Below are positions 1 to 10,948 of a stretch of 10,948 bases of DNA, piece by piece. This DNA comes from a virus. The stretch lies in UHGV virus genome UHGV-0238331; one strand, 5' to 3'. A program made the position numbers and the translations under genes. Each line of letters starts with the position of its first letter. The first letter of the stretch is position 1. The notes beneath the pieces are model-generated. The model worked only from the letters and a program-made list of their open reading frames with translations, did not search any database and was not told the origin of the DNA.

Positions 1-284
1 TCGGCCTGCGCACGCGTAAGTCGATGGCGTTCGTACTCAATAGTCCCTGGCTGGAGATCTGTCTCGCTGGCCTGCCGCAGTTCTTCAACTTCCCGGCGCA
101 GCTTTTCGTTCTCAATTTCAGCATCCCTTTCGGCATACCATTTTATGGCGGCGGCAGAGTCATAAAGCACTTCATTACCCTTGCCACCACCCCGCAGAAC
201 GGGCATTCCCTGCTCCTGCCAGTTCTGAATGGTACGGATACTCGCGCCGAAAATGTCAGCCAGCTGCTTTTTGTTGACTTCCAT
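1..284 (-). CDS. nu1: Terminase small subunit, lambda Nu1-type; 3' end lies beyond the window start
   Basis: Minus-strand translation from ATG (complement of 282-284) reads [74 protein letters not shown]..., near-identical to the lambda Nu1 N-terminus as I recall it. Frame stays open to position 1. Absent from the ORF track because no stop codon lies in the window. Confidence 0.93.
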
Positions 285-285
285 T

Positions 286-480
286 GTTCATTCCACGGAC
301 AAAAACAGAGAAAGGAAACGACAGAGGCCAAAAAGCTCGCTTTCAGCACCTGTCGCTTCCTTTCTTTTCAGAGGGTATTTTAAATAAAAACATTAAGTTA
401 TGACGAAGAAGAACGGAAACGCCTTAAACCGGAAAATTTTCATAAATAGCGAAAACCCGCGCGCCTTCCGCCCCGTAGCC
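286..480. other. cos region: cosB-like terminase/IHF binding region (about 286-455) and cosN-equivalent (about 455-480)
   Basis: Reverse complement of 286-461 is almost base-for-base the start of the lambda genome as I recall it (CGCGGGTTTTCGCTATTTATGAAAATTTTCCGGTTTAAGGCGTTTCCGTTCTTCTTCGTCATAACTTAATG...), directly upstream of nu1. The 12-nt cohesive-end equivalent (complement of 462-473) reads GGGCGGAAGGCG versus lambda GGGCGGCGACCT. Confidence 0.7.
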
Positions 481-555
481 TGCCGGATCGCCGGAAAGGA
501 CCCGCAGGCGTTCTGGTTTATTCGCAATGAATTCAATGTCTGACAGACCTGCGTC

Positions 556-573
556 GTGCGACCATGGTCGCAC
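556..573. repeat. Perfect 18-bp palindrome GTGCGACCATGGTCGCAC (copy 1)
   Basis: Read directly from the sequence; the site is its own reverse complement. It lies in non-coding DNA between the DUF4406-like gene and cos. Confidence 0.8.
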
Positions 574-676
574 AGCAATGAATCAACATCCTGCATGCTC
601 GCGCAGAGGAGTTCCCCGTCGGGCTACGGTCATGGTTAATGCGGAAATACGGCGACGATGCAGCGCGGTATTTAAT

Positions 677-694
677 GTGCGACCACGGTCGCAC
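677..694. repeat. Near-perfect 18-bp palindrome GTGCGACCACGGTCGCAC (copy 2)
   Basis: Same 8-bp arms as copy 1, with only the central dinucleotide differing. Centres are about 121 bp apart. Confidence 0.8.
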
Positions 695-713
695 ACGAGA
701 AACAAAGAGATTT

Positions 714-1025
714 TTATGCTACAGAGGAACAAGCTGGCGGGTAATTCAGCGTAGTGAATACCGGCATCTCCATCTTGTATGCGTAATGATACTCAGCAGT
801 TGCTCCAGCAGACGCTTTCCAGCCAGGAAGCATCAAAATAGCATCAGCACAACGAAGCATTGCAAAGCAAATATCCATGTATTCACGTTGTGTCAGACCA
901 TTAGGCAAAGTGGCTGGATTCAAGACAGAGTGACCATGTCGTGACAAACGATCTGCCTCTTTATTAAAGGCGTCACGATTAAAGTTCTCATATCCCGTCA
1001 TTGGCCCGGCAATATAAATTTTCAT
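714..1025 (-). CDS. DUF4406-like (nucleoside 2-deoxyribosyltransferase-like fold) protein, 103 aa
   Basis: ORF begins MKIYIAGPMTGYENFN...VLNPA...ADAILMLPGWKASAGATAEY, the pattern I associate with DUF4406 proteins. Co-oriented and 41 bp downstream of Rz. Family assignment is from memory. Confidence 0.55.
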   Translation of the reverse strand: MKIYIAGPMTGYENFNRDAFNKEADRLSRHGHSVLNPATLPNGLTQREYMDICFAMLRCADAILMLPGWKASAGATAEYHYAYKMEMPVFTTLNYPPACSSVA

Positions 1026-1066
1026 TCACTATCCAATAAATTGAGCTCGTTTTTGATACAGAGGGA

Positions 1067-10140: not shown

Positions 10141-10948
10141 TTACCCCCTGAAGCCCGGCGGAATTTCGGTGTCCGGCTCGGAAATATGATTTACACATCG
10201 CTGTACAGGCGAACGCCCCAGGCGGATGACCAGTTCGTCCCATTTTTCGCGAAGCTTTAACGGGCTCATGATGTTTTTTACCCAGAATGGATCCCGCTGT
10301 ACCCGACCAAACATTTCACAAATTTGTCTGTGGCTTCTGCCATCCAGCATCCGCATTGTGCGCACGTCATTGGCCCAGGCAGTCCAGTTAGGCTCTTTTG
10401 GTCGCATGATCTCGCCATCATCACTGGCTGCCTGTTCGTAGAGACCCACGATCCGCCCCCAGATCCACTGCGCACACGCCAAATCCTCCCTGCTACCCCA
10501 CTGGCGTTTTTTCGCACTAAACACAACCGCGTCGGAGTTCCGGGTTAAAAAATCCTGTTCAGTCGTCTGCGGGTCCGGTTGCGAAGCTTCCGGACGAAAA
10601 GTGTTTTTATTCTCTGTAGTAATCTCTGTTGTATTCTCTGTAAGATCATCAGGCCATTTTGACCCGATGACATTGGGTCGTTTTGAACCAATGGAGCGTT
10701 TCATTTTGACCTCTTCCATCGTGTCATTTTGACCTGATGGAGCGGCGCATTTTGAACCGATGGATTCGCTCAATTTGCCACCATCTAAAAGCTCGCTCCC
10801 ATAGTTGATCGTGTAGAAATTGGTCATATCGCGCTTTGATTTATTGAGCTTTTCACAACGCAAAAGCCCCAGCGTTTTCAGACTTGCAAACGCGCGCTTT
10901 AACGTTGACTCTGACCAGAATGGGAACTGTTCCAGCCATTGTTCCGTT
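10141..10948 (-). CDS. O: Replication initiator, lambda O-like; N-terminus lies beyond the window end
   Basis: Frame is open to position 10948 (TEQWLEQFPFWSESTLKRAFASLKTLGLLRCEKL...). C-terminal block PNWTAWANDVRTMRMLDGRSHRQICEMFGRVQRDPFWVKNIMSPLKLREKWDELVI resembles the lambda O C-terminal domain. Iterons lie inside the gene, as for ori-lambda. Confidence 0.8.
   Translation of the reverse strand, partial: TEQWLEQFPFWSESTLKRAFASLKTLGLLRCEKLNKSKRDMTNFYTINYGSELLDGGKLSESIGSKCAAPSGQNDTMEEVKMKRSIGSKRPNVIGSKWPDDLTENTTEITTENKNTFRPEASQPDPQTTEQDFLTRNSDAVVFSAKKRQWGSREDLACAQWIWGRIVGLYEQAASDDGEIMRPKEPNWTAWANDVRTMRMLDGRSHRQICEMFGRVQRDPFWVKNIMSPLKLREKWDELVIRLGRSPVQRCVNHISEPDTEIPPGFRG
10600..10790. repeat. 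Replication origin inside O: about six iterons (consensus TTTTGAcC-n-GATGG, 23-25 bp period) plus an adjacent AT-rich TCTCTGT-repeat segment
   Basis: Iteron copies start near 10657, 10681, 10704, 10728, 10750 and 10771. AT-rich segment 10600-10650 carries three TCTCTGT repeats. The iterons encode a repeated IGSK peptide in O. Confidence 0.6.

What the first reader, a model, noticed from the sequence alone, without database searches (positions are those of the whole stretch)
556..694. Two copies of an 18-bp palindrome (GTGCGACC-AT/AC-GGTCGCAC) about 121 bp apart next to cos
A perfect 18-bp palindrome and a near-identical second copy sit in non-coding DNA between the last late gene and cos. Neither is followed by a U-tract on either strand, so they are unlikely to be intrinsic terminators. 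The length, symmetry and roughly 11.5-helical-turn spacing are typical of paired binding sites for a dimeric DNA-binding protein, here of unknown identity. I do not recognise the motif as a LexA, Fur, IHF or other common E. coli site.
Basis: seen in the sequence. Interest (0 to 1): 0.45.

Follow-up and report, generated by a model that had tools for sequence, protein, structure and literature searches.

The report
N15-type SopB centromere sites beside cos
The two 18-bp palindromes are exact copies of the known binding sites (centromeres) for the partition protein SopB of the linear phage-plasmid N15, carried here, probably as orphans picked up by recombination, in an ordinary lambda-like phage next to its DNA-packaging site.

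Summary
GTGCGACCATGGTCGCAC (556-573) and GTGCGACCACGGTCGCAC (677-694) are the only copies in the window and are far beyond chance. They are not of unknown identity. They match letter for letter the 18-bp cores of the centromere sites IR3 and IR1/IR4 of phage-plasmid N15, which bind the ParB-family protein SopB.

The right copy lies 19 nt after the DUF4406 gene. That is the position of the fourth centromere in N15-like E. coli phage-plasmids that carry sopA, sopB, telN and repA.

The window itself is a lambdoid phage (O-type iterons, Q, RusA) and has no sopB. An integrated chromosomal prophage with the same cos-proximal site has an integrase and no sopAB. The sites are therefore most likely orphan centromeres acquired by module exchange with N15-like phages.

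The 121-bp spacing has no structural meaning. It results from a deletion between two copies of a conserved repeat; relatives have 220 bp, or about 1.9 kb.

Two side observations. The DNA between the palindromes is the truncated remnant of a widespread, unannotated ~172-nt element that looks like a structured RNA of the late transcript. The palindromes also often sit exactly at mosaic breakpoints.

The parts
556..573 (.). Left palindrome GTGCGACCATGGTCGCAC: an N15-type SopB centromere site with a core identical to N15 IR3
   Evidence: Searches give sequence and coordinates. One search gives the IR3 oligo GTGCGACCATGGTCGCAC. One search places it at N15 41124-41141. The same cos-proximal block, with an AC centre, is in the integrated prophage of E. 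coli 19KM1778.
677..694 (.). Right palindrome GTGCGACCACGGTCGCAC: an N15-type SopB centromere site with a core identical to N15 IR1/IR4, at the position of IR4
   Evidence: It lies 19 nt after the DUF4406 stop, exactly as in phage-plasmid pZ1323HEC0355-3. Window 650-770 is 100% identical to ten E. coli records, seven of them ~46-75 kb plasmids and three chromosomes.
574..597 (.). 24-nt junction AGCAATGAATCAACATCCTGCATG: what is left of the left end of the conserved element after an internal ~100-nt deletion ('copy A' type)
   Evidence: Alignments. Compare GCTCCTGAATACATGCCCTG + 99 nt in full copies.
598..668 (-). Truncated remnant (about 70 of ~172 nt) of a conserved non-coding element found widely in lambdoid phages. 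On the - strand it is the 5' half of a conserved hairpin whose 3' half is missing here
   Evidence: distribution; alignment with lambda-like HK630, phage 21, Stx phage 1717 and an N15-like phage; structure and strand.
497..503 (-). cosQ-like heptamer GGGTCCT
   Evidence: (window - strand) compared with the N15 right end and with the phage 21 record, which annotates cosQ. Assigned by analogy, not tested.
455..466 (-). Predicted 12-nt cohesive end GGGCGGAAGGCG (cosN)
   Evidence: One search compared with the N15 record, whose first 12 bases GGGCGGCGTCCG are annotated as the sticky end. Assigned by analogy.
1..284 (-). 5' part of the Nu1-type terminase small subunit gene (runs off the window)
   Evidence: ATG at 284-282, MEVNKKQLA.... 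Homologous loci are annotated as terminase small subunit/Nu1.
714..1025 (-). DUF4406 gene, homologue of N15 gene 57, the last gene before the right palindrome
   Evidence: PF14359, E=3.7e-34; 82.7% aa identity to N15 gp57.

Best explanation
Each palindrome is a centromere (parS-type) site of the N15 class: an 18-bp inverted repeat bound by one dimer of N15-type SopB, an HTH ParB-family protein, with one helix-turn-helix per GTGCGACC half-site.

On an N15-like linear phage-plasmid, four such sites are dispersed through the genome. They nucleate the SopB partition complex that SopA then positions, and they can silence nearby promoters.

In this window the sites sit in a lambdoid phage (lambda-type O iterons, Q, RusA) that shows no sopB. 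They came in with the lysis-to-cos end module, which lambdoid and N15-like phages exchange freely. The right site is the IR4 homologue. The left site is a second, cos-proximal site also present in N15-like relatives.

Their 121-bp distance was created when two copies of a ~70-nt repeat recombined and deleted about 1.7 kb.

Shown: sequence identity to the experimentally used N15 sites, synteny, the recombination history, and the absence of sopB in the window and in one complete integrated relative.

Inferred: that the sites are orphans with no function for this phage on its own, and that they would bind SopB and nucleate a complex only if an N15-like phage-plasmid is in the same cell.
For: Identity to the known sites. 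(PMC7205306, Table 4) gives the natural N15 sites: IR1/IR4 = GTGCGACCACGGTCGCAC and IR3 = GTGCGACCATGGTCGCAC, identical to window 677-694 and 556-573. One search finds the four sites in the N15 genome: in repA, after Q, before the late promoter, and after gene 58 near cos.

Specificity. Searches show that F SopB binds TGGGACCACGGTCCCA, that SopB contacts 18 bp, and that N15 sites differ from F sites only at position 4/4', which is exactly the difference seen here.

Synteny; the 45.9-kb phage-plasmid pZ1323HEC0355-3 has sopA, sopB (73% aa identity to N15 SopB), protelomerase, repA and four sites at the N15-syntenic places. The fourth lies 19 nt after DUF4406, as in the window; window 598-1030 is 99.8-100% identical to N15-like (Ravinvirus) records.

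Recombination history; relatives L012 and L105 have cos, a site, a truncated repeat, ~1.6 kb, a site, the full element, a site, then DUF4406. The window equals the left part of the first repeat joined to the right part of the second; four SNP-bearing positions in the shared stretch all match the second copy.

Sequence variation; among 221 instances, variants are uncompensated single-arm changes, mostly at the outermost positions. That is the pattern expected of a protein site, not of a hairpin.

Background; across 185,579 species genomes there are only 47 exact hits. Most are single copies in unrelated, mainly soil and metagenome-derived genomes and look like chance matches; multi-copy or prophage-type hits occur only in enterobacteria.
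Against: No sopA or sopB is present in the window. A complete integrated relative with the same left site has an integrase and no partition genes. A defining partner of the system is therefore missing, and function in this phage is unproven.

The left-site block occurs in 175 chromosomal places and only 1 plasmid place among complete E. coli genomes. That is odd for a plasmid centromere and leaves room for a SopB-independent role.

F-type SopB, present in 2511 of 5426 E. coli genomes, is reported not to use N15 sites.

No binding experiment can be run here.
Confidence: 0.8

Rival explanations
1. RNA-level role. In the late transcript (- strand) the palindromes form hairpins. Alternatively, the two copies pair with each other into a ~19-25-bp duplex that closes a loop around the conserved element, creating an RNase III-type processing site or protective ends for a stable RNA.
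For:: the - strand RNA of 540-710 folds with the two palindromes paired to each other (MFE -64.9 kcal/mol, z = -2.7, 1 of 200 shuffles as good). In N15-like phages two sites flank the full element at 220 bp. The element itself looks like a structured - strand RNA. The N15 record annotates IR4 as a putative terminator stem-loop.
Against: The same 18-mer occurs singly at unrelated places, including inside the repA coding sequence. Arms never show compensatory changes, and single-arm variants are uncompensated. There is no U-tract. Pairing of two identical palindromes is automatic and needs no selection. Most lambdoid phages have the element with no palindromes at all.
Confidence: 0.08
2. The sites are operators for some other dimeric regulator, phage- or host-encoded and unrelated to SopB, that controls packaging or late expression in lambdoid phages.
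For: The left-site block is almost exclusively chromosomal (175 versus 1 places). It lies only 53 bp from cosQ. No sopB is visible in the window or in L174.
Against: The sequence is identical to a site with a known, experimentally established ligand. Classical lambdoid phages with the same cos region lack the site: it is a clean 29-bp indel, so it is not needed for packaging. Only one or two copies occur per lambdoid prophage, and none near regulatory genes. No candidate protein was found.
Confidence: 0.05
3. The palindromes are ends or footprints of a small mobile or recombinogenic DNA element (MITE/PATE-like), or they act mainly as recombination joints between phage modules.
For: Homology between genomes often stops exactly at a palindrome. 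About 150 chromosomal hits end at window 573, and three hits start at 677; of 39 flank clusters, ten are joined through the palindrome to more than one partner cluster (one to five partners). The left site is a 29-bp insertion relative to IR-less phages.
Against: There is no target-site duplication, no transposase, and no terminal inverted repeats beyond the palindrome itself. The DNA between the two copies is an old phage element that exists without palindromes. Breakpoints at short islands kept identical by selection are expected from ordinary homologous exchange, so this is compatible with, and does not replace, the centromere explanation.
Confidence: 0.05

Closest known systems
Centromere sites IR1-IR4 of linear phage-plasmid N15 (SopB/SopA partition system; Ravin & Lane 1999; Grigoriev & Lobocka 2001, the latter recalled from memory)
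   Same: The 18-bp sequences are identical (IR3 and IR1/IR4 cores). The right copy is in the same neighbourhood as IR4, after the DUF4406 gene and before cos. The flanking DNA is 99.8-100% identical to N15-like E. coli phage-plasmids.
   Different: The host genome here is lambdoid, with O-type replication, and no sopAB, telN or repA is visible. There are two copies 121 bp apart rather than four dispersed over ~12 kb. One copy lies 53 bp from cosQ.
sopC of plasmid F (tandem 43-bp repeats, 10 or 12 depending on the source, each with the 16-bp SopB site TGGGACCACGGTCCCA)
   Same: Same ParB-family protein class. 14 of 16 core positions are identical and the centre is the same, GACCACGGTC.
   Different: Position 4/4' is C/G instead of G/C, the base pair that separates N15 from F specificity. 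There is no 43-bp tandem array. F SopB is reported not to function with N15 sites.
Chromosomal/plasmid parS sites of ParABS systems in general
   Same: A short palindromic site bound by a ParB dimer. Several sites per replicon, and a single site can nucleate a complex.
   Different: Here the sites appear on a replicon (an integrated lambdoid prophage or phage) that does not need partition and shows no ParB gene. They are orphan sites.
Boundary ('linker') sequences at module junctions of lambdoid phages (Clark et al. 2001, HK620; recalled from memory, not checked here)
   Same: A short conserved island at which homology between mosaic genomes begins or ends.
   Different: Those sequences have no known ligand. 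These are bona fide protein-binding sites kept constant in N15-like genomes.

Membership tests
N15-type SopB centromere site (IR) | 18-bp inverted repeat GTGCGACC-NN-GGTCGCAC identical to a natural N15 IR | tested here: met
   556-573 = IR3 core and 677-694 = IR1/IR4 core, 18/18.
N15-type SopB centromere site (IR) | N15-specific base pair at position 4/4' of the half-site (C, not the G of F sopC) | tested here: met
   Searches compared: GTGCGACC here versus (c)TGGGACC in F.
N15-type SopB centromere site (IR) | Position syntenic with a centromere of N15-like phage-plasmids | tested here: met
   The right copy lies 19 nt after the DUF4406 stop, as in pZ1323HEC0355-3. N15 IR4 lies after genes 57/58 and before cos. 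The left copy corresponds to the cos-proximal copy of L012, L105 and L176.
N15-type SopB centromere site (IR) | Cognate sopA/sopB on the same replicon | tested here: not met
   No ParB or ParA is in the window (Pfam; tblastn with N15 SopA/SopB). The complete integrated relative L174 has none. The rest of the source genome is not visible, so this holds only for the 10.9 kb given.
N15-type SopB centromere site (IR) | Bound by SopB; confers SopAB-dependent stabilisation or incompatibility | not testable with these tools
   Needs EMSA, ChIP or plasmid-stability assays. The identical 18-mers were used as functional N15 centromere units in PMC7205306.
N15-type SopB centromere site (IR) | Several copies dispersed through the genome | tested here: inconclusive
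   There are two copies, both within 140 bp near cos, and none elsewhere in the window even with 3 mismatches. The integrated relative L174 has a single copy in 40 kb.
F-plasmid sopC | Tandem 43-bp repeats each carrying TGGGACCACGGTCCCA | tested here: not met
   a different base at position 4/4' and no 43-bp tandem array.
Intrinsic (rho-independent) terminator | GC-rich stem-loop followed by a U-tract | tested here: not met
   The scan does not call either palindrome, and the flanks lack T-runs on both strands.
MITE / IS-derived element | Terminal inverted repeats with target-site duplication, and insertion polymorphism of the whole unit | tested here: not met
   the polymorphism is a 29-bp indel of a single palindrome with no duplication; the intervening DNA exists without palindromes.
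Any Rfam RNA family (for the DNA between the palindromes) | Covariance-model match | tested here: not met
   there was no hit at gathering score. The only hit at E<=10 is Twister-P5 at 12.4 bits against a cut-off of 37.6, which is chance.

The most novel reading that the evidence does not exclude
Orphan N15-type centromere sites in integrated lambdoid prophages may not be passive hitch-hikers. They could mediate cross-talk with N15-like phage-plasmids in the same cell. By recruiting SopB they could (a) destabilise or exclude an incoming phage-plasmid through centromere-based incompatibility or titration, (b) let the plasmid's SopB silence the prophage's cos and late region, or (c) bring the two genomes together so that module exchange happens at the sites. 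The last would explain why mosaic breakpoints fall exactly at the 18-mers.

Separately, the unit of site plus ~172-nt element could mark a conserved, undescribed structured RNA of the late operon.
Probability: 0.12. Interest if true: 0.6.

Novelty: new member of a known kind. Interest (0 to 1): 0.3.

Why it matters
In itself it matters little. The motif is a textbook ParB-type centromere whose ligand, specificity determinant and function are known, so the 'unknown regulator' disappears.

The modest added value is in the context. N15-type centromere sites turn up in about 170 of 5,426 complete E. coli chromosomes, inside ordinary integrated lambdoid prophages that have no partition genes, and often exactly at mosaic junctions. 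This documents a route of exchange between phage-plasmids and integrating phages. It also raises a testable question: do chromosomal orphan centromeres interfere with phage-plasmid inheritance?

The conserved ~172-nt element is present in lambda itself and in about half of the E. coli genomes searched. It is not in Rfam and no annotation for it was found, so it may be worth a separate look.

Tried and rejected
Rfam, on the window and on three related loci at gathering and permissive thresholds: nothing, so the inter-palindrome DNA is not AgvB, AsxR, Esr41, STnc100 or any other curated prophage sRNA. The Pas sRNAs map next to holin/lysozyme genes, not here.

PHROGs on the four short ORFs overlapping 393-754: no family, so coding was rejected.

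Promoter and terminator scan: no terminator at the palindromes. The bor promoter annotated inside the homologous HK630 element (TGGACA-15-TACAAT) is not conserved in the window (CGGTCA/TACGGC). A promoter-operator reading was therefore dropped.

IS200/IS605-PATE and REP ideas were considered early and dropped once the N15 match was found; there is no target duplication.

Genome-wide pattern scan: most of the 47 hits are single copies in unrelated, mainly soil and metagenome-derived genomes and look like chance matches. This is useful only as background.

Source of the window: no complete E. coli genome or phage record covers >=80% of it, so whether the source phage is integrated could not be settled.

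The YDC107_1 record is a mis-assembled linear plasmid, with an inverted duplication through the telomere and no sop region, so pZ1323HEC0355-3 was used instead.

N15 sopAB DNA against E. coli genomes recovered only <=77% identical sequences, mostly F-type. DNA-level search is too insensitive to count N15-type SopB carriers, so co-occurrence of chromosomal sites with N15-like plasmids could not be quantified. Only strain Z1323HEC0355 was seen to carry both.

PMC94163 (Ravin & Lane 1999) is not held. The primary description of the N15 sites is therefore cited through later papers.

Full report
1. THE OBSERVATION

The window read on its - strand is the right end of a lambdoid late region running into cos and the packaging genes. 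In that order it contains an S21-type holin gene (2213-1998), an endolysin gene (1998-1501), Rz (1516-1067), a DUF4406 gene (1025-714), 430 bp of non-coding DNA, then Nu1 starting at 284.

GTGCGACCATGGTCGCAC at 556-573 is a perfect palindrome. GTGCGACCACGGTCGCAC at 677-694 differs from it, and from perfect symmetry, only at one of the two central bases. With up to three mismatches allowed, these are the only copies in the window, and none of 200 shuffles reaches this count.

By comparison with the N15 and phage 21 records, cosQ (GGGTCCT) is at 497-503 and the predicted cohesive end GGGCGGAAGGCG is at 455-466. The left palindrome is therefore 53 bp from cosQ.

Neither palindrome has a T-run, and the terminator scan ignores both.

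2. WHAT THE PALINDROMES ARE

An exact-pattern scan of IMG/VR returned more than 120 loci, often with two to four copies per contig. One of them was phage N15 itself.

Table 4 of PMC7205306 lists the four natural centromere sites of N15 with their flanks. IR1 and IR4 are GTGCGACCACGGTCGCAC, IR2 is GTGCGACCTCGGTCGCAC and IR3 is GTGCGACCATGGTCGCAC. The window's two palindromes are therefore letter-perfect IR3-type and IR1/IR4-type cores.

In the N15 genome the sites lie at four places:
- inside repA (33479);
- after Q (35930);
- just upstream of the late promoter (41124);
- after genes 57/58, before gene 59 and cos (45561).

The F plasmid SopB site is TGGGACCACGGTCCCA. SopB contacts 18 bp, and N15 and F sites differ only at position 4/4' of the half-site. 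That is exactly the difference seen here.

Across one genome for each of 185,579 species the 18-mer occurs only 47 times. Most are single copies in unrelated, mainly soil and metagenome-derived genomes and look like chance matches (not calculated). Multi-copy or prophage-type hits are seen only in enterobacteria, for example three copies in a 46-kb Pseudocitrobacter contig.

Among 221 instances collected with up to two mismatches, the variants are uncompensated single-arm changes, mostly at the outermost base pair. This is the behaviour of a protein-recognition sequence, not of a selected hairpin.

3. CONTEXT AND HISTORY

Window 598-1030 is 99.8-100% identical to ~46-kb N15-like (Ravinvirus) records and plasmids.

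One of these, pZ1323HEC0355-3, encodes SopA (93% identical to N15 SopA), SopB (73% identical to N15 SopB), protelomerase and RepA. It carries four sites at the N15-syntenic positions, the last one 19 nt after the DUF4406 stop, exactly as in the window. The right palindrome is thus the IR4 homologue.

The window itself is not N15-like:
- It has 23-bp-spaced iterons at its far end, in a stretch whose best phage matches are annotated as replication protein O.
- It has a Q antiterminator, RusA, DUF968 and a methylase.
- Its best matches are integrating lambdoid phages and prophages.
- No ParA or ParB is present.

The left palindrome together with its cos-side flank occurs in 175 chromosomal places and only one plasmid place among complete E. 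coli genomes. One such prophage, in strain 19KM1778, was inspected over 40 kb. It is a normal integrated lambdoid prophage with an integrase, no partition genes, and a single site.

Classical lambdoid phages with the same cos region lack the site: SE15 prophage, 4A7, IdasGreatGrand, lambda-like HK630, phage 21 and Stx phages. Relative to them the site is a clean 29-bp indel between CTGACAGACC and TGAATACA.

4. WHY 121 BP

In five loci of N15-like type the two palindromes are 220 bp apart and flank a full copy of a conserved element.

Loci L012 and L105 show the fuller arrangement: Nu1, cos, a site, a truncated element ('copy A'), ~1.6 kb, a site, the full element ('copy B'), a site, then DUF4406.

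A three-way alignment shows that the window equals copy A up to ...TCCTGCATG, and copy B from CTCGCGCAG onward. All four SNP-bearing positions of the shared 70-nt stretch match copy B.

The window is therefore a deletion product of recombination between the two repeats.

5. MECHANISM

Established for N15 (and general ParABS knowledge): a SopB dimer binds each 18-bp site through its HTH. Further SopB is then loaded and spreads, forming the partition complex that SopA positions. Arrays of these sites at att-lambda form SopB foci and silence a nearby promoter.

For this window I infer the following:
- The sites are competent SopB sites, because their sequence is identical to the known ones.
- The phage has no use for them on its own.
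- They act only if an N15-type SopB is supplied in trans.

F-type SopB is common: sopAB-like DNA occurs in 2511 of 5426 genomes. It is reported not to function with N15 sites. Only one strain, Z1323HEC0355, was seen to combine a chromosomal site with an N15-like plasmid.

6. RIVALS

RNA-level role. The - strand RNA of 540-710 folds with the two palindromes paired to each other, and N15's IR4 is annotated as a putative terminator. Against this, the 18-mer also occurs singly inside repA, shows no compensatory variation, has no U-tract, and is absent from most phages that carry the intervening element.

An unknown regulator. This is disfavoured because a known ligand exists and the site is dispensable in phages with the same cos.

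A mobile or recombinogenic element. There is no target duplication and no transposase. Breakpoints at the sites are real, however. About 150 hits end at window 573, three hits start at 677, and ten of 39 flank clusters are joined through the palindrome to more than one partner cluster. Exchange at short islands kept identical by selection would explain this.

7. THE DNA BETWEEN THE PALINDROMES (side finding)

Window 598-668 is the remnant of a ~172-nt non-coding element. The element is present in lambda-like HK630 (between p78 and bor), phage 21, many Stx phages, N15-like phages and about half of the complete E. coli genomes.

In late-transcript sense it lies shortly upstream of the terminase small-subunit gene in every locus inspected, although those genes carry different annotations: Nu1-type, HNH plus small subunit in phage 1717, and small subunit/DNA-packaging protein in the Stx phages of subfamily Sepvirinae.

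It has no Rfam match and shows 1-nt indels, so it is not coding.

RNAalifold strongly prefers the - strand: -53.6 versus -27.2 kcal/mol. A 25-bp hairpin is 98.6% paired in 31 distinct copies. Two of its pairs show compensatory changes, and 93 cells are G.U pairs that would be A.C mismatches on the other strand.

This is suggestive rather than conclusive, because the sequences are closely related. In the window the 3' half of the hairpin is deleted.

8. VERDICT

This is a known kind of site in an unexpected genome. It is most likely a pair of orphan N15-type centromeres carried along by module exchange.

Novelty: new member of a known kind. Interest: 0.3.

Noticed in passing
window 598-668 (remnant); full copies at L002 1396-1569, L172 (HK630) 1146-1306, L173 (phage 21), L003 (Stx2 phage 1717) 1395-1565: A ~172-nt conserved non-coding element (TTCTTCCACC...GATGCAGCGC on the window + strand) is present in lambda-like phages, phage 21, Stx phages, N15-like phages and about half of complete E. 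coli genomes. In late-transcript sense it lies shortly upstream of the terminase small-subunit gene in every locus inspected, although those genes carry different annotations. It has no Rfam family. The - strand folds into a 25-bp hairpin that is 98.6% paired, with many strand-specific G.U pairs and 2 compensatory pairs. It may be an undescribed structured RNA of the late operon.
   Followed up: partly
window 573/574 and 676/677; L175, L176, L177; IMG/VR loci L004-L123: Homology between phage genomes often starts or stops exactly at the edge of an 18-bp palindrome. About 150 chromosomal hits end at 573, three hits begin at 677, and ten of 39 flank clusters are joined through the palindrome to more than one partner cluster. 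Relative to IR-less lambdoid phages, the cos-proximal site is a clean 29-bp indel (AGCGTC-IR-GCTCC) between CTGACAGACC and TGAATACA.
   Followed up: partly
window 455-466 (- strand): The predicted 12-nt cohesive end GGGCGGAAGGCG differs from lambda's GGGCGGCGACCT and from N15's GGGCGGCGTCCG. The same variant is in L001, L174, L175 and L176, whereas L177, 4A7 and IdasGreatGrand have the lambda sequence.
   Followed up: no
window 10655-10778: Four to five iterons with 23-bp spacing (CATTTTGA(A/C)C..ATGGAGCG) lie in the stretch covered by the 240-aa ORF 10141-10863 (- strand), in the manner of a lambda-O-type origin. The ORF has no Pfam hit, but related phages annotate replication protein O here.
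   Followed up: no
L178 (CP025712.1, phage YDC107_1), about 28000-46300: The public record looks mis-assembled. The protelomerase, repA and neighbouring genes appear twice in inverted orientation, as if reads ran through the hairpin telomere, and the sopAB and tail-fibre end is missing.
   Followed up: no
L172 (HK630) 1267-1293 versus window 630-656: The promoter annotated upstream of bor in HK630 (TGGACA-15 nt-TACAAT) lies inside the conserved element, on the strand opposite to the predicted RNA hairpin. In the window, which has DUF4406 instead of bor, the hexamers have decayed to CGGTCA and TACGGC.
   Followed up: partly
E. coli Z1323HEC0355: NZ_CP148363.1 2707031-2707104 and plasmid NZ_CP148365.1: One sequenced strain carries both a chromosomal prophage with the cos-proximal N15-type site and an N15-like phage-plasmid encoding SopAB. 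It is a natural system for testing whether chromosomal orphan centromeres recruit SopB.
   Followed up: no
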